Below, piece by piece: positions 4,950 to 25,445 of a stretch of DNA of 25,516 bases. Under the pieces are notes generated by a model. It ran no database searches. It was not told where the DNA came from and saw nothing but the letters and a program-made list of their open reading frames with translations. The translations under genes and the position numbers were made by a program. This stretch comes from a virus (Duplodnaviria; Heunggongvirae; Uroviricota; Caudoviricetes). The stretch lies in IMG/VR virus record IMGVR_UViG_2671180439_000001. One strand, written 5' to 3'. The number at the start of each line of letters is the position of its first letter. Position 1 is the stretch's first letter.

Positions 4950-6044
4950 ATGAGCAGACCGGACTGGGGGGCGTTGCAGCAGGAGTATATTGCTGAATAC
5001 ACCCGCTCCGGTATATCTCCGGTGGCATGGTGTGAAGCAAGGGGACTGAATTACGCAACAGCCCGTCGTTACATCAAAAAACCTCCGAAAAATGCGCAGA
5101 CAGAAATGCGCAAAACTGCGCAAAAAAGTGCGCAGAAAAAATCTGCGCAGACTGCACAAAAGCGGAACGGAAAATCTCAGGAAAAAAAGCCAGTATCCGA
5201 TGCGTACCTGAATGAGGGCGATGCGGAAGAAATTTCGTTCTGTCCCGATGAATTCGGCGTTTCTGACCAGCAGGCGAAATTCGCAATGCTGGTTGCCCAG
5301 GGGAAAAAACTCGTTGAGGCATATCGCCTGGCAGGATACGAGTCAGAGGGGAATGCGGCCTACGTAACCGCCAGCCAGCTCCTAAGAAATCCTAAGGTTT
5401 TTCGTGCTATCAGCTACTTCCGCAATCAGTACCAGAAACGCTATACCGCAGACCTGGATTTACTGGTGAGTCAGTTGATGGCCATTGTCCAGGCCGACCC
5501 CAATCAGTTGGCACAATTTCGCCGTGTTAACTGCCGTTATTGCTGGGGCGAGAATCATCACTACCAGTGGCGCGATATAGCAGAATTCGATAAGGCAGCG
5601 GCGCAGGCCTCCAGAGATGGCAAACCCGAGCCGGAATATGGTGGCCTTGGCTTTGTTGATAACGCCATACCCAATCCGGACTGCCCGAAGTGCTGCGGTG
5701 AGGGAACGGGGCAGCTTTATATGGCTGATACCACTCTGCTTGATGGGGAAGCGCGGCAATTATATGCAGGGGCAAAGCTCGGAAAATTTGGTGTTGAGAT
5801 CCTGCTGGAGGATAAGGCTGCCGCCCGGCGTGAATTGTTGCGTTTGCTTGCTGCTGGTGGGGCTTTATGTGCAGATAAGCGGCTACAGGAACTGGAAATT
5901 GAACGGCGCAGAATGGAAAACCAGAAGCTGCGCAAAGAGATCGAAACGGTGGAAGATAATGAACATCCCCAACCTGTGGCGATCAATATTAATGTGGTTG
6001 ATGCCAGAGTAAGGAGTGATGAAGATGATCTCTCCGACGCTTAA
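4950..6044 (+). CDS. Terminase small subunit (Terminase_2/P27-like core) with N-terminal HTH and Cys-rich zinc-ribbon-like segment
   Basis: 364-aa ORF directly upstream of and overlapping the large terminase. Region SDQQAKFAMLVAQGKKLVEAYRLAGYESEGNAAYVTASQLLRNPKVFRAI fits the small-terminase pattern; N-terminal HTH-like segment (SPVAWCEARGLNYATARRYI); low-complexity K/A/Q linker; CRYC...CPKCC motif; C-terminal coiled coil. Confidence 0.75.
   Translation: MSRPDWGALQQEYIAEYTRSGISPVAWCEARGLNYATARRYIKKPPKNAQTEMRKTAQKSAQKKSAQTAQKRNGKSQEKKPVSDAYLNEGDAEEISFCPDEFGVSDQQAKFAMLVAQGKKLVEAYRLAGYESEGNAAYVTASQLLRNPKVFRAISYFRNQYQKRYTADLDLLVSQLMAIVQADPNQLAQFRRVNCRYCWGENHHYQWRDIAEFDKAAAQASRDGKPEPEYGGLGFVDNAIPNPDCPKCCGEGTGQLYMADTTLLDGEARQLYAGAKLGKFGVEILLEDKAAARRELLRLLAAGGALCADKRLQELEIERRRMENQKLRKEIETVEDNEHPQPVAININVVDARVRSDEDDLSDA
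5093..5149 (+). repeat. Array of five TGCGCA(G/A)A palindromic-core repeats inside the 5' part of the TerS gene (candidate pac/TerS recognition site)
   Basis: TGCGCA occurs at 5093, 5107, 5117, 5129 and 5144, spaced 10-15 bp, each followed by G/A then A. Confidence 0.5.
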
Positions 6045-10700: not shown

Positions 10701-10798
10701 CACATTTGTCAGCTTCCGGATGGGAGCTGGTGTCAGGGCTGGATAGCTCATTACTCCATCTATTCACAATTACGCAAATTTTTAAGGAATATTTAATT

Positions 10799-11938
10799 AT
10801 GGCTGGAAATACCCTGACCGGGTTGATCCCGACTATTTACACCGCCCTGGATGTTGTATCCCGTGAGCAGGTAGGTTTTATCCCTGCGGTAGCAAAAAAC
10901 GCAAAAGCTGACGCCGCAGCAAAAGATCAGACGGTAACCGCGTCAGTTGCGCCTGAGGCGAAAACCGAAGATATCGTACCGGGGCCGTCAGCTCCGAATA
11001 CCGGTGATCAAAATATTGGCACTGTTGATGTAAAAATTACTAAATCCAAAATGGCGCCGGTTAAATGGAATGGTGAAGAACAACTGGCTCTTGGCCCTTC
11101 AGGGACTTACAACACCATTCTGGCTGATCAGTTCAAGCAGGCTTTTCGCGCCCTTGCAAACGAGGTTGAGGCTGATCTTGGTGCGTTGTATTTCGGTGCT
11201 TCCCGCGCCGTGGGAACCGCAGGGACAACGCCGTTTGGTGTTAAAGATGATCTTTCTGATGCTGCTCTGGCTCGTCAGGTTCTGGAGGATAACGGCGCAC
11301 CGACAACAGATCTGCAGATGGTGCTTGGCTCCAGTGCCATTGCTAATTTGCGCGGAAAACAGTCTGTACTGTTTAAAGTGAATGAATCCGGCACTGAACA
11401 GCTACTGCGTGAGGGCGTGTTGGGGCGTCTGGAGGGATTCAATATTCACAGTTCGGCAGGTGTAAAACGAGCGCCAAAGGTTGCTGCAACTGGTTATCTC
11501 GTGAATGGCGAGAAAAAAGAAGGCGATGTTCTTATTTCCATTGATACTGGTTCGGGGAGTATTTCTGCAGGTCAGATTGTTACGTTCGCTGGCGATCCGA
11601 ATCAGTATGTTGTGGCAGCAGCGACCAGCAATCTGATTACTCTTGCAGCGCCCGGACTGCGTCAGGATCTGGCCGATGATACTGCAATCACAGTTGTTGG
11701 CTCCTTTACTGCAAATATGGCGTTTGATCGCAACGCGTTTCTGCTGGCATCCCGTACTCCGGCAATGCCGGAAGGTGGCGATAATGCTGATGATGTAATG
11801 AATGTTACGGACCCGATTTCAGGGATTACGTTCCAGATTGCACTGTATCGTCAGTATCGCCAGGTGCGCTATGAAGTTGGACTGGCATGGGGTGTTTCAT
11901 CAGTGAAGCCGGCACATGGTTGTCTGATTCTTGGTTAA
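10799..11938 (+). CDS. Major capsid protein (putative)
   Basis: 379-aa ORF from ATG 10799 with an AAGGA Shine-Dalgarno; follows the scaffold gene and is followed by a terminator. The ORF-track TTG start at 10706 is unlikely. Assignment by position and size. Confidence 0.68.
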   Translation: MAGNTLTGLIPTIYTALDVVSREQVGFIPAVAKNAKADAAAKDQTVTASVAPEAKTEDIVPGPSAPNTGDQNIGTVDVKITKSKMAPVKWNGEEQLALGPSGTYNTILADQFKQAFRALANEVEADLGALYFGASRAVGTAGTTPFGVKDDLSDAALARQVLEDNGAPTTDLQMVLGSSAIANLRGKQSVLFKVNESGTEQLLREGVLGRLEGFNIHSSAGVKRAPKVAATGYLVNGEKKEGDVLISIDTGSGSISAGQIVTFAGDPNQYVVAAATSNLITLAAPGLRQDLADDTAITVVGSFTANMAFDRNAFLLASRTPAMPEGGDNADDVMNVTDPISGITFQIALYRQYRQVRYEVGLAWGVSSVKPAHGCLILG

Positions 11939-12160: not shown

Positions 12161-12556
12161 ATGATCACTTACGTGACCTGTGATGACGTTGATAATGCGT
12201 TTGGGAACGCCTGGACGAGTGAGAACGCTAAAAATAAAGCTGTTTTAATGGCTAATGCCTGGCTTAATGGCTTCAGCCTGAAAATTAACCCATCCCGTAT
12301 TCCGGAAGAGGTAAAACTTGCGGGAGCATATGCAGCCAGAATTGCCTCTGTCGGTAAGTTGTTTCAGCAGAAAAATGATTCAGGCGTTGTTATCAGTAAA
12401 GCCGTGTCGGCTGACGGGGTCAGTGTATCGAAATCATTTGCTGAATTGCCAGCAAACAGCACTGCATTGCTTGAACCCGATTTACAGCTTGCGATAGCAC
12501 TGCTGAAACCGTACGGACTTAGTCGCTCACAAGTCAGGGTTGTGAGGGGGGGATGA
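12161..12556 (+). CDS. Putative head-tail connector / head completion protein
   Basis: 131-aa ORF, first of four tightly packed ~130-aa genes between the capsid and major tail genes. Assignment by position only. Confidence 0.4.
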   Translation: MITYVTCDDVDNAFGNAWTSENAKNKAVLMANAWLNGFSLKINPSRIPEEVKLAGAYAARIASVGKLFQQKNDSGVVISKAVSADGVSVSKSFAELPANSTALLEPDLQLAIALLKPYGLSRSQVRVVRGG

Positions 12557-12939: not shown

Positions 12940-13320
12940 ATGGCAAAGGCATGGGATATCGAACCGTCAATATTTGCCGGGATGATTGAGGAAGATGTGG
13001 GGCTGAAAATTCGCTACATCGCTATTCAGATTCTTACTGCTATTGATATTGCTGCTCCGGTTGATACCGGGCGTTTCAGAAATAACAACATGGTGTCGTT
13101 ACAGTATCCCGATTTTGGTATATCTGATAACGTGGATCCGAACGGTACGATTGCGGTTCAGCGTGGGATCGGAGTTATTTCGAAAGCTGCAAATTACGGA
13201 ATTATTTATATCCAGAATAACCTTCCTTATGCAGAGGCTCTTGAAAACGGTCATTCACAACAAGCGCCAACTGGCGTGTATGCCAACGCTTTTAATGGTG
13301 TTTTACAGGCTTACAAATGA
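12940..13320 (+). CDS. Putative tail component, HK97 gp10-like
   Basis: 126-aa ORF. Motifs PVDTGRFRNN and NNLPYAEALENGHS resemble the HK97 gp10 family as I recall it. Confidence 0.45.
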   Translation: MAKAWDIEPSIFAGMIEEDVGLKIRYIAIQILTAIDIAAPVDTGRFRNNNMVSLQYPDFGISDNVDPNGTIAVQRGIGVISKAANYGIIYIQNNLPYAEALENGHSQQAPTGVYANAFNGVLQAYK

Positions 13321-13709
13321 CGTTTACTGAAATCAGAAATACGGTCATTTCCAGAATGACGGCACAGACGGTTATTGATGGAAAAGACGTATTGTATCCG
13401 AACGGGCCAACGTTCGATCCTTCCGGTAAGTTAATCTGGGCGCGTTTAAGTAATATTCCCGGGCAGGCTGGAGTTAATGAAATTGGCGCGGGGCCGGTTG
13501 TTTATCGCACGGGGATAATCATTATTCAGTTATTTGTCCCCGCAGGTTCTGGTTCAAAACTCATTACTGAGACAGCCGATAAATTGCGGGAACTGTTTGA
13601 GTTTCAGGATGACGATCGTCTCAGTTACCAGGTTGTTTCCTCAATAGCCGTTGGCGAAAAGAATGGCTGGTTCCAGCTTAATCTTCAAATTCCATATCGC
13701 GCGCTCTAG
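13317..13709 (+). CDS. Putative tail completion / tail terminator protein
   Basis: 130-aa ORF overlapping the previous stop by 4 nt, immediately upstream of the major tail gene. Assignment by position only. Confidence 0.4.
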   Translation: MTFTEIRNTVISRMTAQTVIDGKDVLYPNGPTFDPSGKLIWARLSNIPGQAGVNEIGAGPVVYRTGIIIIQLFVPAGSGSKLITETADKLRELFEFQDDDRLSYQVVSSIAVGEKNGWFQLNLQIPYRAL

Positions 13710-13735: not shown

Positions 13736-14698
13736 GTGAGTTCAGGTGCAAAGGTTATCTCGGCATTTATCCGGGAGACGGTTGCAGGCACTACGCCAGC
13801 AAGTGGTGACTGGAGTTTATTAAAACGCACAAGCTGGGGAGTAAAACCCACCCAGAATAAAAGCGAAAATAATGAGATTGGTGGCTCCCGGATGGCTCAG
13901 GGGGCGACGCCTGGCACTGTGGATGTCGGCGGTGATGTTGGTACCAAATTTCGCTGGGGTCAACATGATGATTTTCTTGCATCCTGTTTCGGCGCGGAAT
14001 GGTCAGGCGATTCTCTGACAATGGGGAATGAGCGAATAACATTTTCTCTGGCGACCTATGCGTCCGATGTCGGAATTGCCTCTGTCGTCAGAGGAGCACA
14101 GGTTGGCTCATGGAAAATGCAGATCCCTAACGACGGCGATATTACAGCGACCGTAACCTTTGCCGGACTGGACTGGGAATCAAAGGCCGATGATACGAAT
14201 TTTATCAAAGGCGAACCTGTGGATAGTGCAGGAAAGCTACGTTATTCGTTTAAGGAGGTTTCAGCAGTAAGCCTGAATGGTGTTGCCGGAGGTAACGGTT
14301 TTTGTATCGACAGTTTTGATATTCAGTTCGATAACAAACTCCAGACACAGCGTTGTATCGGGACTGGCTCGCCTTATGCAGGAGCAAATATTCCGACTAC
14401 TTTTACACCGTCCGGTACGGTGACGCTTTCATGGTCTAAAGCCGCGTGGGAAATCTGGAGTAAAACACTGACTGGAGAAACAGTTCCGTTCAGCTTCACG
14501 CTTTCGAATGGAGAGGGGGCATACACTTTCAGTTTCCCGAAGGTTCAGGTGTCAGGTGAATGGCCTGATGGGGGTAATAGCGACATTATCCAGGTTCAAT
14601 TGAGCATTACCGCAGCAGATGAAACACCTACGATAACCAGAAAAAAAAATTCCCCGGCTGCCGTGATCGCAAAAGCCAGTGCTGAGGCGATTAGTTGA
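13736..14698 (+). CDS. Major tail (tube) protein, probably with a C-terminal Ig-like extension
   Basis: 320-aa ORF with GTG start 13736 and a strong AGGAGG Shine-Dalgarno (13725-13730). Sits before the chaperone/tape-measure genes; Ser/Thr/Gly-rich beta-like C-terminus. Confidence 0.6.
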   Translation: MSSGAKVISAFIRETVAGTTPASGDWSLLKRTSWGVKPTQNKSENNEIGGSRMAQGATPGTVDVGGDVGTKFRWGQHDDFLASCFGAEWSGDSLTMGNERITFSLATYASDVGIASVVRGAQVGSWKMQIPNDGDITATVTFAGLDWESKADDTNFIKGEPVDSAGKLRYSFKEVSAVSLNGVAGGNGFCIDSFDIQFDNKLQTQRCIGTGSPYAGANIPTTFTPSGTVTLSWSKAAWEIWSKTLTGETVPFSFTLSNGEGAYTFSFPKVQVSGEWPDGGNSDIIQVQLSITAADETPTITRKKNSPAAVIAKASAEAIS

Positions 14699-14746
14699 TT
14701 TTCCGTTATTCCTCCTGTGGTACTGCCCTACAGGGGGACGCATTGA

Positions 14747-15208
14747 ATGAGGTTATGGATGTTTATTCTTAATCAGAAAATTATCATTGGTGGAGAACGC
14801 TGGTTTACGCCAATGAAGGACTTAAAACCTGTAGACGGGTTAAAACTGTTGGTGGCAAGCAGCGATAACGATCAGTATCGCTCCCGTAATGCATTAATCC
14901 GTCGCCACATTGAGAAAATGGATGCCAGTTTGCACGTCGGAACGAAGGAGTTTGATATTTCAAAGGTTTCCGAGGTGGATTCTGTTGATGATTTACTCAT
15001 TGATAATGCCGCTCGTTATCTGCTGAAAGACTGGAAAGGGGTTGGTGAACTGGTTAATGGTGTTGAGGTTGCACTGGAATATACGGCAGAACGAGGGATC
15101 GCGCTGCTTAAGCAGAATCCAGAGTTGTACTGGCAGATCCTTGCAGAAGCAGCCAGCATCGCCCAGGGTAAAGAGCAGCAGAAGCAGGATACGATAAAAA
15201 AGCCATAG
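14747..15208 (+). CDS. Tail assembly chaperone (lambda G-like), zero-frame product
   Basis: 153-aa acidic ORF immediately upstream of the tape measure gene; AGGGGGA Shine-Dalgarno upstream; ends 4 nt after an A_AAA_AAG slippery heptamer. Confidence 0.6.
   Translation: MRLWMFILNQKIIIGGERWFTPMKDLKPVDGLKLLVASSDNDQYRSRNALIRRHIEKMDASLHVGTKEFDISKVSEVDSVDDLLIDNAARYLLKDWKGVGELVNGVEVALEYTAERGIALLKQNPELYWQILAEAASIAQGKEQQKQDTIKKP
15196..15202 (+). other. Programmed -1 ribosomal frameshift slippery heptamer A_AAA_AAG (tail assembly chaperone G/GT-type)
   Basis: In the chaperone reading frame the codons are AAA (15197-15199) and AAG (15200-15202), preceded by A at 15196. The -1 frame is open from here to 15516. 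Confidence 0.6.
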
Positions 15209-15516
15209 CTGCCCAGCGGTGGTTATCGGAGTTCGGGGGAGAAAGGGGGGAAAAGGCAAGATGGAAGCGAGAAAAACTCAGGTTGCCACCGATACCGGAA
15301 CCAGAAATAGACCCGGTGCTTAAGGAGTTGTTGTACGCCTATTCGGTAATATCCCGTGCCCGACGTTATGCTGGAATGGCTGGGGTGCCTTTGCCTTTAT
15401 CTCTGACAGAGATAAATGAATATTTAGCCACTCATCCGGTATTGATTGAGCGCGATGAATTTGAAGCAGTGATCTTTGCACTGGATGACCAGTATTTTCA
15501 GGAGCAGTGTGTGTAG
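15202..15516 (+). CDS. Tail assembly chaperone C-terminal extension (lambda T-like segment), expected only as a fusion via -1 frameshift
   Basis: The -1 frame continues without stops from the slippery site into the 77-aa ORF-track entry 15283-15516, which has only a TTG start and no Shine-Dalgarno of its own. Confidence 0.55.
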   Translation, partial: AIAAQRWLSEFGGERGEKARWKREKLRLPPIPEPEIDPVLKELLYAYSVISRARRYAGMAGVPLPLSLTEINEYLATHPVLIERDEFEAVIFALDDQYFQEQCV

Positions 15517-15636
15517 TTGTTAATTACGTACACTCTGTTACAGAGATGTGATGGTGTCTTTAATTAAATCGATGATGCTCCTGGAGAAAAGCATTGCGTG
15601 GCCTCGTAATCGCTATATCTACTATTATGTCGCCTG

Positions 15637-15662
15637 AAACCCACTTCGCGGTGGGTTTTTTG
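15637..15662 (+). terminator. Hairpin plus T-tract (terminator/attenuator) in the gap before the tape measure gene
   Basis: AAACCCAC-TTCGCG-GTGGGTTT stem-loop followed by TTTGTTG, 20 nt upstream of the tape measure start codon. Confidence 0.5.
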
Positions 15663-15681
15663 TTGTCAGGAGTTTTAATAA

Positions 15682-18600
15682 ATGGCAGAGCAAACCTCGC
15701 GTCTCGCAATAATTATTGATAGCACTGGAGCGAAAAATAATGCTGACAATCTGACCTCCTCATTAGTCAAAATGACGCAGGCTGGGGAAACTGCTGCAAA
15801 TAGCGCAGGGAAAGTGACTAAGGCAACAGAAGATGAGAAGAACGCGCTCGCAAAATTAAAAGCAGCTATTGATCCAGTTGGTGCCGCAATTGATACTGTC
15901 GGTCGACGCTATTCTGAATTAAAGAAATTTTTCGATAAAGGGCTTATTGATAAAGAAGAATATGAATTTCTTGTCCGTAAACTTAATGAAACCACAGAGG
16001 AATTGAGCGGGGTTGCGCAAGCGCAGAGAGAAGCCGAGAAGGCCGGAAAACTTGCTGCCGCCCAGCAGGAAGCGCAGGCTCAGGCCTTTCAAAGAATGCT
16101 GGACAAGATCGACCCTCTGGCTGCGGCGCTAAGAAATCTTGAACAACAGCATGATGAACTTAATGCTGCGTTTGCATCCGGGAAAATAAATGGTTCTCAG
16201 TTTGAGAATTATAGCCGAAAAATACAGGAAACACGGCGAGAGCTTACCGGAGAGGCTCAGGCAGAGCGAGAAGCAGCAAAAGCGCATGATGAACAGGTTG
16301 TTGCTTTGCAACGTCTGATTGCTCAACTTGATCCTGTCGGAACTGCTTTTAATCGTCTGGTAGAACAACAGAAACAGCTCAATGAAGCAAAAGCTAAGGG
16401 GATGCTTTCTCCTGAAATGTATGAGGAGCTTTCTGGAAAACTTCGTGCTATGCGGAGTGAGCTTGAGGTTACTCAATCACAATTAAGCAAAACCGGAATG
16501 TCGGCAAAACAAACGGCTTTTGCTATGCGCATGTTGCCTGCACAAATGACGGATATTGTTGTTGGGTTGTCCACTGGTCAGTCGCCATTTATGGTGTTAA
16601 TGCAGCAGGGCGGCCAGCTAAAAGATATGTTCGGTGGGATTGGCCCGGCGATCAAAGGTGTAGGTTCTTATGTGCTGGGATTAATTAATCCTTTTACCCT
16701 GGCCGCAGCAGCCGTTGGGGTCTTAGGACTGGCTTACTATAAAGGCTCTCAGGAGCAGGACGAATTTAATAAATCTCTTATTCTTACCGGAAATCAGTTG
16801 GGGACAACCAGCGGGCAATTGGGCGATATAGCTCAACGTGCCGGGAATGCGGCTGATTCGACAACTGGTGCTGCGGCGGCAGTATTAAATCAGCTTGTGC
16901 GTTCGGGAAAGGTAGCGAGCAGTTCGCTGGAGCAAGTGACGACAGCGATAGTAAAAACGAGCGAAGTAACAGGAATATCAACCGAACAACTGGTTAATGA
17001 CTTCAATGAAATTGCAAAGGATCCTGTCAGTGCCATATCAAAACTTAATGATCAGTACCATTTTCTGACACTTGCGACTTATAACCAGATTAAGGCGCTA
17101 CAGGATGAAGGGAACCAGCAGGAGGCCGCCCGCATTGCGACAGAAGAATACTCATCCTCAATGATCCAGCGCACCAACCAGATTAAAGAAAATCTTGGTT
17201 ATTTTGAGACTGCATGGAAAGCTGTCGCAGACTCCGCAAAATGGGCATGGGATTCCATGCTGGATATTGGCCGTGAGGCCTCCCTTGATCAAAAAATCTC
17301 AGATGTTCTCCGTCAAATTGATGAAATAGAAAAAAATACCCGACCCGGAGTTTTCGGGTTAGGTGGCATTGGAGATGGCGGAGCTCAAAATAAAAGGCTG
17401 GCACGATTAAAGCAGCAATTGGGCGTACTTCAAGCAGAAAAAATTGCTCAGGACGTACTAAATTCATCAATAAACGATTACAACAAGCGACAACAGGAAG
17501 GAATTGAACTCAGACAGAGAGCAGATGCCTTTTCAAAACAATATCAGACCCGGGAGCAGCAGAGAGCTAGTGAACTTGCAAAACTGGAAAAGCTAAAGAA
17601 TCAGTATTCAAAGGAAGAATATAATAATCTTATCGCTCAAATAAATGAGCGTTATAAAGATCCAAAGCAACCAAAGGCGAAAGGTTATTCTGATGATGCA
17701 GCCCAACGAATGATTGATCATCTGAATCAACAGAATGCGTTACTAAGTTCACAAGCTGAGTTGACCGTTAAATTAAGTTCCTCTGAACAGGAACTGGTTA
17801 AGTGGCGTCAGCGGATTGCCGACCTAGAGTCACGACCATCATCGAAATTAACCCAGGATCAGAAATCGCTTCTCTTACACCGGGAAGAAATAACCGCGTT
17901 GATGGAGAAAAATGTTGCGATTGAAAAGAATAACAGGCTAATCAAGGAATCCGCCGAAATAACAGCATGGCGTGATTCATTGCAGGCTTCGATTGATAAT
18001 CGTCAACAGGGGTATGATATTCAGATTGCTGGTTATGGGGTTGGCGATAAAAATCAGCAACGCCAGCAGGAATTACTGCGGATTGAACGTGAATATAACA
18101 ATCAGCGTCTGCAACTTGAACGTGACTATGCAGATAAATCCCGTGGGATGTCAAATCATGTTTTTCAGGAGAAAATGCAGACTCTGAATGATGCTCTGGA
18201 ACGAGAAAAAGAAATTATCAGACAGAAAAACGAGCAGCTCGATATTCAGGCAGGAGACTGGGTTAGTGGTGCCTCCCAGGGATTCAATAACTGGCTGGAT
18301 GACACTAAGGATATCAGTGAGCAGATAAAATCAACCACGACTCAGATGTTTGATGGAATGACCGATGCGCTGGGTGATTTTGTCACGACAGGCAAGGCAA
18401 ATTTTCGTTCTTTCGCTACTTCCGTGATTTCGGATCTTAGTCGAATAGCATTAAAGGCTTCAATTACTGGGATTTTCGACAGCATTAGTAACAGTTCTTC
18501 TGGGGGGATTTTAGGAACTATCGGGAGTGCTATTAGTAAATTTATTCCGAATGCAAAGGGCGGTGTTTATGAGTCTCCGTCATTGAACACGTATTCGAAC

Positions 18601-18915
18601 GGTATTTATGATTCCCCGCAATTTTTTGCTTTTGCAAGAGGGGCTGGTGTTTTTGGTGAGGCTGGTCCGGAAGCCATTATGCCATTAACACGAACTTCCG
18701 ATGGTTCTCTTGGTGTCAGAGCTATTAATAGTAAAAGTGGTAATGGAGGCGGAGATATTACCTATGCCCCTGTATACCAAATCACTATTCAAAATGACGG
18801 CCAGAATGGAGAGATTGGCCCTCAGGCAATAAAAGCACTTATGGGGATGGTTGATCAGCGGGTGCAGGGCAATCTGTTAAATATGCGACGTGATGGGGGA
18901 ATGTTAAGTGGCTAA
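15682..18915 (+). CDS. Tail tape measure protein
   Basis: 1077-aa ORF with AGGAG Shine-Dalgarno. Long coiled-coil regions, three N-terminal tandem repeats of about 58-80 aa, a central hydrophobic segment ([17 protein letters not shown]...[14 protein letters not shown]), and position upstream of M-L-K-I-J. Confidence 0.88.
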
Positions 18916-24845: not shown

Positions 24846-25445
24846 ATGCGTAAAGTTTGTGCAGCCATTTTGTCCGCAGCCATCTGTCTGGCCGTATCCG
24901 GTGCGCCTGCATGGGCGTCTGAGCAGCAGGCCACACTGAGCGCAGGGTATCTTCATGCCCGTACGAACGCTCCCGGCAGCGATAATCTGAACGGGATTAA
25001 CGTGAAATACCGTTATGAGTTTACGGACATGCTGGGTGTTGTGACGTCATTCAGTTATGCCAATGCCAAAGATGAGCAAAAAACGCATTACAGCGATACC
25101 CGCTGGCATGAGGATTCCGTGCGTAACCGCGGGTTCAGTGTGATGGCGGGGCCGTCTGTTCGCGTGAATGAATGGTTCAGCGCGTATGCGATGGCGGGTA
25201 TGGCTTACAGCCGCGTTTCGACTTTCTCCGGGGATTATCTGCAGGTGACCGACAATACGGGGAAAACGCATGATGTGCTGACCGGAAGTGATGACGGTCG
25301 CCACAGCAACACGTCTCTGGCGTGGGGGGCTGGCGTGCAGTTTAACCCGACCGAATCCGTGGCCGTTGATGTCGCTTATGAAGGCTCCGGCAGCGGTGAC
25401 TGGCGTACCAACAGTTTCATCGTTGGTGTCGGTTATAAATTCTGA
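24846..25445 (+). CDS. lom: Lom outer membrane protein (Ail/Lom family beta-barrel)
   Basis: 199-aa ORF with an N-terminal signal peptide (MRKVCAAILSAAICLAVSGAPAWA), beta-barrel-like alternating pattern and C-terminal aromatic residue (GVGYKF); matches lambda Lom in sequence and position. GAGAGG Shine-Dalgarno upstream. Confidence 0.9.
   Translation: MRKVCAAILSAAICLAVSGAPAWASEQQATLSAGYLHARTNAPGSDNLNGINVKYRYEFTDMLGVVTSFSYANAKDEQKTHYSDTRWHEDSVRNRGFSVMAGPSVRVNEWFSAYAMAGMAYSRVSTFSGDYLQVTDNTGKTHDVLTGSDDGRHSNTSLAWGAGVQFNPTESVAVDVAYEGSGSGDWRTNSFIVGVGYKF

What the first reader, a model, noticed from the sequence alone, without database searches (positions are those of the whole stretch)
14747..15516. 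Programmed -1 frameshift (A_AAA_AAG) joining two tail assembly chaperone reading frames
The 153-aa chaperone ORF ends 4 nt after a textbook slippery heptamer at 15196-15202, in the correct codon phase (AAA AAG). The -1 frame is open from that point through the 77-aa ORF to 15516, and that ORF has no ATG start or ribosome binding site of its own. This is the conserved G/GT-type recoding arrangement of long-tailed phages and predicts a fusion product of about 256 aa made at low frequency.
Basis: partly seen in the sequence, partly recalled or inferred. Interest (0 to 1): 0.5.

Follow-up and report, generated by a model that had tools for sequence, protein, structure and literature searches.

The report
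Phage tail chaperone G/GT frameshift site
This is an ordinary, well-supported example of the programmed -1 ribosomal frameshift that long-tailed phages use to make two tail-assembly chaperones from one gene pair; the only new point is that public annotations of this prophage family miss it.

Summary
The chaperone ORF runs from 14747, or more likely ATG 14759, to 15208. It carries A_AAA_AAG at 15196-15202 in the correct phase, one codon before its stop. The -1 frame is open from 15172 to 15516. The pair lies between the tail tube gene and the tape measure gene of a lambda-like tail module.

Fifty-seven distinct relatives from Escherichia to Pantoea and Serratia support it. All keep a shift site at the same aligned position. 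It is A_AAA_AAG or lambda's G_GGA_AAG, and once G_GGG_AAG. The preceding Val codon co-varies (GTA with AAA, GTG with GGA). The 0-frame stop varies from 1 to 35 codons after the heptamer. The -1-frame protein is conserved from the first codon after the heptamer, and third-position variation switches frame there. In 15 diverged loci no start codon exists in the -1 frame before codon +27.

A distant homologue in Acinetobacter phage TRS1 is already annotated as a joined CDS at the same position. No conserved stimulatory RNA structure or upstream SD was found, as in lambda. RefSeq calls the first ORF "YdaY" with a truncated start, and calls the second "hypothetical" or omits it.

Verdict: interpretation supported; known mechanism, low interest.

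The parts
14759..15208 (+). Gene G: tail assembly chaperone, 0-frame product of 149 aa. An alternative upstream ATG at 14747 gives 153 aa. RefSeq names it ydaY and starts it at TTG 14849.
14749..14752 (+). Shine-Dalgarno-like GAGG, 6 nt before ATG 14759
   Evidence: Sequence. A GGAG/GAGG is found at the equivalent place in all relatives examined.
15172..15208 (+). Overlap window: the only stretch where both the 0 frame and the -1 frame are open, so the shift must occur here
   Evidence: upstream -1-frame stop TAA 15169-15171; 0-frame stop TAG 15206-15208
15196..15202 (+). Slippery heptamer A_AAA_AAG, in phase (0-frame codons AAA AAG)
   Evidence: In 57 distinct relatives the same aligned position holds A_AAA_AAG or G_GGA_AAG, and once G_GGG_AAG. 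The preceding Val codon co-varies, GTA versus GTG.
15202..15516 (+). T segment: -1-frame coding region of 104 codons plus stop TAG 15514-15516. It is translated only as the C-terminal part of GT.
   Evidence: PHROG 1189 E=1.4e-36. Weak, sub-threshold Pfam PF23812 Phage_TAC_18 match in 8 of 16 family members. The protein is conserved from its first codon. Third-position variability follows this frame. No start codon before codon +27 in 15 diverged loci.
13736..14698 (+). Context: tail tube (major tail) gene directly upstream
   Evidence: PF18906 Phage_tube_2 E=5.5e-32; PHROG 290
15682..18915 (+). Context: tape measure protein gene directly downstream
   Evidence: PF06791, PF09718, PF24622; PHROG 24. 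Followed by lambda M, L, K, I and J homologues and a Lom homologue.

Best explanation
Genes G (14759-15208) and T (15202-15516, -1 frame) of a lambdoid (Rac-like) siphovirus prophage are decoded like lambda G/GT.

Most ribosomes translate G and stop at TAG 15206-15208, giving a 149-aa tail assembly chaperone. A small fraction slip back one base, with tRNA-Lys in the P and A sites on A_AAA_AAG (15196-15202). They re-pair with AAA AAA, read GCC next, and continue in the -1 frame to 15516. This gives a 252-aa GT fusion (...QDTIKK|AIAAQRWLSEF...). The frequency is probably a few percent; this is inferred from lambda and from the known shiftiness of this heptamer in E. coli.

By analogy with lambda, many G copies and a few GT copies would coat the tape measure protein. 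The T domain would recruit the tail tube protein, and neither protein would end up in the virion.

Shown here: the sequence layout, family membership, and evolutionary conservation of the site and of -1-frame coding.
Inferred: that slippage occurs, its efficiency, and the assembly role.
For: Anatomy.

Location between the tube and tape measure genes of a lambda-like tail module.

G is in PHROG 313 (tail assembly chaperone). The fusion extends the match from profile positions 13-149 to 13-246 of 258, and the score rises from 158.7 to 174.4 bits.

Comparative evidence:
- 57 distinct sequences, down to 55% G identity (Citrobacter, Raoultella, Siccibacter, Pectobacterium, Serratia, Pantoea, Scandinavium), all have a shift site at the same aligned position.
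- The site alternates between A_AAA_AAG and G_GGA_AAG, with GTA paired to AAA and GTG paired to GGA.
- The 0-frame stop lies 1, 7, 25 or 35 codons after the heptamer.
- The -1 frame stays open for 263-335 nt beyond the 0-frame stop in the diverged genera.
- In the 27 codons after the heptamer, variable columns by -1-frame codon position are 15, 14 and 25. Upstream, the same third-position excess is in the 0 frame (22, 18 and 37 of 40).

No ATG/GTG/TTG occurs in the -1 frame between its upstream stop and codon +27 in any of 15 diverged loci. In two loci the first start codon is at +58.

Gene callers give T homologues arbitrary starts, with lengths of 60-138 aa.

Acinetobacter phage TRS1 has a T domain 39% identical. 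It is annotated as a joined (slippage) CDS, TRS1_19, and G_GGA_AAG sits at the homologous 'IVGK' position.

Against: There is no protein-level evidence for this family.

A few relatives lack a canonical heptamer at the homologous place: Pectobacterium G_GGG_AAG, Erwinia phage Gungnir39 C_GCA_AAG-TAA, and Pseudomonas phage Aurca01 G_GAA_AAG. The exact slippage mode may therefore not be uniform across the family.

Three of the 57 distinct sequences have a shortened T frame (L038, L040, L055). These are probably decaying prophages.
Confidence: 0.93

Rival explanations
1. T is an independent small gene. It would be translated from its own internal start, as RefSeq (GTG 15316, 66 aa) and GenBank phage SPF_0923 (TTG 15331, 61 aa) annotate it, with no recoding.
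For: Public annotations call it that way. AAGGAG at 15322-15327 lies just upstream of TTG 15328/15331. A Met codon (15376) is conserved in most relatives.
Against: The 38 codons upstream of GTG 15316 are conserved as protein in the -1 frame, starting at the first codon after the heptamer (AxxAQxWLxEFGGExGEKxxWxxEKLxLPxxPEPEID). They show a third-position excess of variation. No start codon exists before +27 in any of 15 loci, and none before +58 in two of them. The AAGGAG-to-TTG spacing is only 0-3 nt. The candidate starts are not conserved in position. Called T proteins have arbitrary N-termini.
Confidence: 0.04
2. The fusion arises by transcriptional slippage: RNA polymerase adds an extra A within the A6 run, rather than the ribosome slipping.
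For: A homopolymeric A6 run is present at 15196-15201. Transcriptional slippage is a known route to frame changes on long A/T runs (review PMC5009743).
Against: Relatives replace the run with G_GGA_AAG (L011, L014, L015, TRS1), which has no homopolymer long enough for polymerase slippage but is a classic ribosomal shift site. The co-variation GTA-AAA / GTG-GGA preserves the X_XXY_YYZ codon-phase rule, which matters only for tRNA re-pairing. From general knowledge, efficient E. coli RNAP slippage needs runs of about 8-9 or more.
Confidence: 0.02
3. The two ORFs are a broken single gene, caused by a frameshift mutation, a sequencing error or prophage decay, with no functional recoding.
For: The homologous ydaY in E. 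coli K-12-like strains is an N-terminally truncated remnant (L009/L010 match only residues 34-149). A few database entries carry in-frame G-T fusions or rearrangements (P0001, P0002, P0123).
Against: The two-frame layout with an in-phase heptamer is found in 57 distinct sequences from many genera, and in over 700 E. coli genomes with near-full-length matches. Both frames are under coding constraint. Independent mutations would not preserve the same junction and a slippery site.
Confidence: 0.01

Closest known systems
Bacteriophage lambda G / GT tail assembly chaperones (-1 frameshift at G_GGA_AAG; Levin, Hendrix & Casjens 1993; Xu, Hendrix & Duda 2004, 2013, 2014, as cited in PMC5009743)
   Same: The gene position is the same, between the major tail and tape measure genes. 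There is a short overlap with the downstream ORF in the -1 frame and no start of its own. An in-phase heptamer ending in A_AAG sits near the 3' end of G. Some relatives use lambda's exact heptamer. No downstream structure was detected in either: z=+0.63 here and +0.84 for lambda over 60 nt. The rest of the tail module (M, L, K, I, J, Lom) is homologous to lambda's.
   Different: There is no detectable sequence similarity of G to lambda gpG. The T segment is shorter (104 versus 144 codons) and matches PHROG 1189 / weakly PF23812. The heptamer is A_AAA_AAG rather than G_GGA_AAG. The 0-frame stop follows after one codon, versus five in lambda. A 165-nt spacer with a terminator-like hairpin separates T from the tape measure gene, whereas lambda T overlaps H.
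Acinetobacter phage vB_AbaS_TRS1 genes TRS1_18/TRS1_19 (annotated tail assembly chaperone and its joined frameshift product, NC_031098)
   Same: The T domain is homologous (39% identity over residues 170-249 of the fusion). The layout is the same, and the shift site lies at the homologous 'V-G-K' position (G_GGA_AAG). The fusion is 248 aa, versus 252 aa here.
   Different: The G domains were not matched by tblastn in this record. The heptamer type differs, and the 0-frame stop is 26 codons after the heptamer. That record annotates the slippage; the E. coli, Salmonella and Klebsiella records do not.
HK97 tail assembly chaperone (PDB 2OB9)
E. coli dnaX and IS-element -1 frameshift sites on A_AAA_AAG
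   Same: The heptamer and the tRNA-Lys re-pairing are identical.
   Different: dnaX-type sites rely on an upstream SD-like element about 10 nt away and a downstream stem-loop. Here an AGGA lies only 6 nt upstream and is not conserved. No significant or conserved downstream structure exists. A low, lambda-like efficiency is therefore expected rather than about 50%.

Membership tests
G/GT-type tail assembly chaperone programmed -1 frameshift of long-tailed phages | Two ORFs located between the major tail (tube) gene and the tape measure gene | tested here: met
   Tube gene 13736-14698 (PF18906), G 14759-15208, T to 15516, tape measure gene 15682-18915 (PF06791/PF09718)
G/GT-type tail assembly chaperone programmed -1 frameshift of long-tailed phages | Downstream ORF in the -1 frame, overlapping the 3' end of the upstream ORF | tested here: met
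   The -1 frame is open 15172-15516, and the overlap with the 0 frame is 15172-15208
G/GT-type tail assembly chaperone programmed -1 frameshift of long-tailed phages | In-phase slippery heptamer X_XXY_YYZ inside the overlap | tested here: met
   A_AAA_AAG at 15196-15202, phase verified. It is the only in-phase heptamer in the overlap.
G/GT-type tail assembly chaperone programmed -1 frameshift of long-tailed phages | Downstream ORF lacks its own translation start, yet is conserved as coding sequence from the shift site | tested here: met
   No NTG codon before +27 in 15 diverged loci. Protein conservation and the third-position pattern begin at the heptamer.
G/GT-type tail assembly chaperone programmed -1 frameshift of long-tailed phages | Arrangement and shift site conserved among homologues | tested here: met
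   57 distinct sequences with A_AAA_AAG or G_GGA_AAG at the same aligned position, with one exception (G_GGG_AAG). Two more distant phages have non-canonical sites.
G/GT-type tail assembly chaperone programmed -1 frameshift of long-tailed phages | Upstream product belongs to a tail assembly chaperone family or fold | tested here: met
G/GT-type tail assembly chaperone programmed -1 frameshift of long-tailed phages | Two proteins made at a fixed low GT:G ratio, both required for tail assembly and absent from virions | not testable with these tools
   Needs protein analysis and genetics. The lambda values (about 30:1) come from PMC5009743.
Lambda gpG / gpT sequence families (homology to lambda proteins) | Detectable sequence similarity to lambda gpG | tested here: not met
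   BLASTP of G against lambda G gave no alignment at E<=100. This does not bear on the mechanism, which is conserved despite low sequence similarity.
dnaX/IS-type stimulated A_AAA_AAG frameshift | Conserved upstream SD-like stimulator at about 10-14 nt and/or a downstream stem-loop | tested here: not met
   AGGA lies 6 nt upstream and is not conserved in L012-L014. Downstream fold z=+0.95 over 88 nt. RNAalifold consensus energy is -3.5 kcal/mol with 6 pairs. Per-sequence z-scores range from -0.81 to +0.84.

The most novel reading that the evidence does not exclude
In this chaperone family the canonical heptamer may be dispensable. Relatives carry G_GGG_AAG, C_GCA_AAG followed directly by a stop codon, or G_GAA_AAG at the homologous junction. 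The conserved core of the recoding signal could therefore be single-tRNA-Lys slippage on A_AAG, or slippage next to a stop codon. A terminator-like hairpin conserved between T and the tape measure gene might add a second, transcriptional layer that sets chaperone-to-tape-measure stoichiometry.
Probability: 0.15. Interest if true: 0.35.

Novelty: new member of a known kind. Interest (0 to 1): 0.12.

Why it matters
The main value is for annotation. This prophage segment occurs in about 1,075 of 5,426 complete E. coli genomes. There the chaperone is labelled 'YdaY' with a start inherited from the truncated K-12 Rac remnant. The T frame is either a 'hypothetical protein' with an arbitrary start or is not annotated at all. 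The GT product, likely essential for tail assembly, is missing from protein databases for the Escherichia, Salmonella and Klebsiella phages of this family. Correct annotation links PHROG 313 and the 'unknown function' PHROG 1189 as two parts of one recoded gene. It does not change understanding of the mechanism.

Tried and rejected
- Downstream stimulatory RNA structure. The window has a local hairpin at 15203-15229 that starts directly after the heptamer. It is weak (several G-U pairs) and no more stable than shuffled sequence (z=+0.95 over 88 nt and +0.08 over 161 nt). It is not conserved, and 16 relatives show z between -0.81 and +0.84. Rejected.
- Upstream SD-like stimulator. AGGA lies 6 nt upstream in the window but comes from the Gln-Asp/Glu codons and is absent in L012-L014. 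Rejected.
- Rfam scan of the whole window: no family.
- Sequence similarity to lambda gpG: none.
- PDB sequence search with the fusion: nothing meaningful.
- NCBIfam: no model for G, T or the tube protein.
- Local Pfam: no hit for G. The database's precomputed PF27119 label for G homologues is not in the local Pfam copy.
- T-domain structure prediction: pLDDT 58, too poor for a fold search, so none was run.
- Literature search for ydaY: nothing relevant to function or recoding.
- The heptamer taken alone as a statistical signal: not significant. The significance comes from its phase, its position and its conservation.

Full report
**1. The observation**

The sequence at 14600-15700 and the ORF table show an ORF at 14747..15208 (153 aa) and a TTG-initiated ORF at 15283..15516 (77 aa). 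AAAAAAG occupies 15196-15202. Because (15196-14747) mod 3 = 2, the 0-frame reading is ATA AAA AAG CCA TAG, the phase A_AAA_AAG needed for tandem -1 slippage.

The -1 frame is closed by TAA at 15169-15171, then open from 15172 to the TAG at 15514-16. The two frames are therefore both open only over 15172-15208. Simulating the slip gives a 256-aa product from ATG 14747, with the junction ...QDTIKK|AIAAQRWLSEFGG.... The description is correct.

Two details need adjusting.
- ATG 14759, preceded by GAGG at 14749-14752, is the start conserved in every relative examined. So G is more likely 149 aa (16.9 kDa) and GT 252 aa (28.7 kDa).
- The -1 ORF does contain NTG codons: TTG 15283, GTG 15316, TTG 15328/15331 next to AAGGAG, and ATG 15376. 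"No start" is really "no start upstream of codon +27".

**2. Is it more than chance?**

The heptamer alone is not unusual. It occurs 10 times on both strands against 6.6 +/- 2.5 expected. I counted 32 in-phase X_XXY_YYZ heptamers in about 8,025 codons of the window's long + strand ORFs.

What is exceptional is the combination. This heptamer is followed by 104 open -1-frame codons and sits one codon before the 0-frame stop. Every other in-phase heptamer has 36 or fewer -1 codons. The one exception is GGGGGGA at 12547, which simply runs into the next gene; that gene has its own ATG at 12553.

**3. Context**

The upstream neighbours are a tail terminator (13317-13709, PF13554) and the tail tube protein (13736-14698, PF18906). 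Downstream is a 1,077-aa tape measure protein (15682-18915; PF06791, PF09718, PF24622). Homologues of lambda M, L, K, I and J and of Lom follow. This is the canonical position of the tail assembly chaperone pair.

G matches PHROG 313 'tail assembly chaperone' (E=4e-46) over profile positions 13-149 of 258. The simulated fusion matches positions 13-246 with a higher score (174.4 versus 158.7 bits). So that family's profile already contains fused forms. The T segment matches PHROG 1189, 'unknown function' (E=1.4e-36). It also matches Pfam PF23812 Phage_TAC_18 weakly: below the curated threshold here, and at E<=0.01 in 8 of 16 family members, best 9.4e-6.

**4. Comparative evidence (the decisive part)**

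I collected 15 loci from species-representative genomes and 80 from viral contigs. These gave 57 distinct sequences.

- *Shift site.* All carry a shift site at the same aligned position. It is A_AAA_AAG in Escherichia, Citrobacter, Siccibacter, Dryocola and Scandinavium. It is G_GGA_AAG, lambda's own heptamer, in Raoultella, Serratia and Pantoea. It is G_GGG_AAG in one Pectobacterium.
- *Co-variation.* The Val codon before the site is GTA when AAA follows and GTG when GGA follows. This synonymous co-variation preserves X_XXY_YYZ.
- *Stop position.* The 0-frame stop is not conserved. It lies 1, 7, 25 or 35 codons after the heptamer, and the 0-frame tails are unrelated in length.
- *The -1 frame.* It remains open 263-335 nt beyond the 0-frame stop in the diverged genera.
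- *Protein conservation.* The fusion proteins align without gaps across the junction. The -1-frame sequence is conserved from its first codon: A-x-x-A-Q-x-W-L-x-E-F-G-G-E-x-G-E-K-x-x-W-x-x-E-K-L-x-L-P-x-x-P-E-P-E-I-D.
- *Codon-position pattern.* In the 40 G codons before the site, variable columns by 0-frame codon position are 22, 18 and 37. In the 27 codons after it, they are 15, 14 and 25 by -1-frame position. The coding frame switches at the heptamer.
- *Start codons.* In 15 diverged loci no ATG, GTG or TTG exists in the -1 frame between its upstream stop and codon +27. In two loci the first is the internal Met at +58.
- *Database entries.* T homologues have arbitrary N-termini, with lengths of 60-138 aa, and all are 'hypothetical'.

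More distant homologues exist in phage records. Acinetobacter phage TRS1 has G_GGA_AAG at the homologous 'IVGK' position, and its fusion (TRS1_19, 248 aa) is annotated as a joined CDS.

Two other phages keep the two-frame layout but lack a canonical heptamer at the homologous place.
- Erwinia phage Gungnir39 has C_GCA_AAG followed directly by TAA.
- Pseudomonas phage Aurca01 has G_GAA_AAG, with a C_AAA_AAA 27 nt upstream.

**5. Mechanism**

The best explanation is lambda-type programmed -1 ribosomal frameshifting on A_AAA_AAG. It would produce mostly G and a minor fraction of GT.

The review PMC5009743 states three relevant points. [quoted passage not shown] I found no stimulatory elements.
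- The region 15203-15290 folds no better than shuffled sequence (z=+0.95).
- The local hairpin 15203-15229 starts immediately after the heptamer and is absent in relatives. The RNAalifold consensus is -3.5 kcal/mol with 6 pairs.
- Per-sequence z-scores for 16 sequences, including lambda, range from -0.81 to +0.84.
- The AGGA 6 nt upstream is not conserved.

A low, heptamer-only efficiency is therefore expected. This is an inference.

**6. Rivals**

- *Independent initiation of T*, as RefSeq and GenBank annotate it. It cannot explain the conserved coding of the start-less 27-58 codons upstream.
- *Transcriptional slippage on A6.* It is contradicted by the G_GGA_AAG variants and by the codon-phase co-variation.
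- *Pseudogene or sequencing error.* It is contradicted by conservation in 57 distinct sequences and more than 700 E. coli genomes.

**7. Comparison with the known and novelty**

This works like lambda G/GT and meets every sequence-level criterion of that class. It is not a sequence homologue of lambda gpG. It belongs to a different chaperone family (PHROG 313 plus PHROG 1189), one distant member of which (TRS1) is already annotated with the slippage.

For the Escherichia, Salmonella and Klebsiella members the frameshift is not annotated. RefSeq names G 'YdaY' and starts it at TTG 14849, mirroring the truncated K-12 Rac remnant. T is either 'hypothetical protein' from GTG 15316 or is omitted.

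It is therefore a new, unannotated member of a well-known kind. Its value is an annotation correction, not a new mechanism. Interest is low.

Noticed in passing
window 15517-15681; also L015, L017, L087, L093, L016, L085, L005, L012-L014, L072/L073, L091: The 165-nt spacer between the T stop and the tape measure start holds a terminator-like hairpin (15636-15659, 10-bp stem, 4-nt loop TTCG, then a T run) just before the tape measure SD. It also holds a 28-aa ORF (15551-15637) with no family match, whose ATG is ATA in L078/L083. In relatives this junction is either 29-39 nt, still with a short GC hairpin plus T run, or carries inserts of 450-2,100 nt. The two inserts I read end in a hairpin plus T run. 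One insert (L016) encodes a lipoprotein-like ORF, MKKMIVVAFVVLLAGC.... This looks like a conserved terminator-like element after GT and a hotspot for insertion of morons (extra cargo genes). Its role inside a late operon is unexplained.
   Followed up: partly
window 14849-15208 and 15316-15516; L001: RefSeq/PGAP annotates G as 'ydaY: protein YdaY' starting at TTG 14849 (119 aa). This copies the N-terminally truncated Rac remnant of E. coli K-12, although intact prophages have the conserved ATG 14759. T is annotated as a 66-aa hypothetical protein, or is not annotated in most genomes listed.
   Followed up: yes
L013 2920-2926; L101 (Erwinia phage Gungnir39) near 1690; L099 (Pseudomonas phage Aurca01) 1587-1593: Some relatives lack a canonical heptamer at the homologous junction: G_GGG_AAG in L013, C_GCA_AAG followed directly by TAA in L101, and G_GAA_AAG in L099. 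All keep a conserved -1-frame T domain. This suggests turnover of shift sites, or single-tRNA slippage.
   Followed up: partly
window 15143-15187 (protein P0001): An E. coli database protein (P0001, 240 aa) is an in-frame G-T fusion lacking 12 residues. It is consistent with a 35-nt deletion between the 10-nt direct repeats GCAGAAGCAG at 15143-15152 and 15178-15187. That deletion would make GT constitutively and abolish G (repeat read). Other chimeric entries exist (P0040 and P0122 with ParB-like parts; P0123, a G N-terminus joined to T).
   Followed up: partly
window 14641-14649: A run of nine A's lies in phase (A_AAA_AAA / A_AAA_AAT) 16 codons before the end of the tail tube gene. The -1 frame gives only 11-12 codons before a stop, so any slippage product would differ only in a short C-terminal tail.
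   Followed up: no
window 5183-5189 and 16905-16911: Two other in-phase, highly shift-prone heptamers occur inside long ORFs: A_AAA_AAG in ORF 4950-6044 and G_GGA_AAG in the tape measure gene. Their -1 frames close after 8 and 28 codons. They are probably incidental.
   Followed up: no
window 24846-25445: A full-length Ail/Lom family outer-membrane protein gene (PF06316, E=2.5e-120) follows the J-like tip gene, in the position Lom has in lambda. The coat protein (10706-11938) matches the P22 coat family weakly, so this is a mosaic of a non-lambda head and a lambda-like tail.
   Followed up: no
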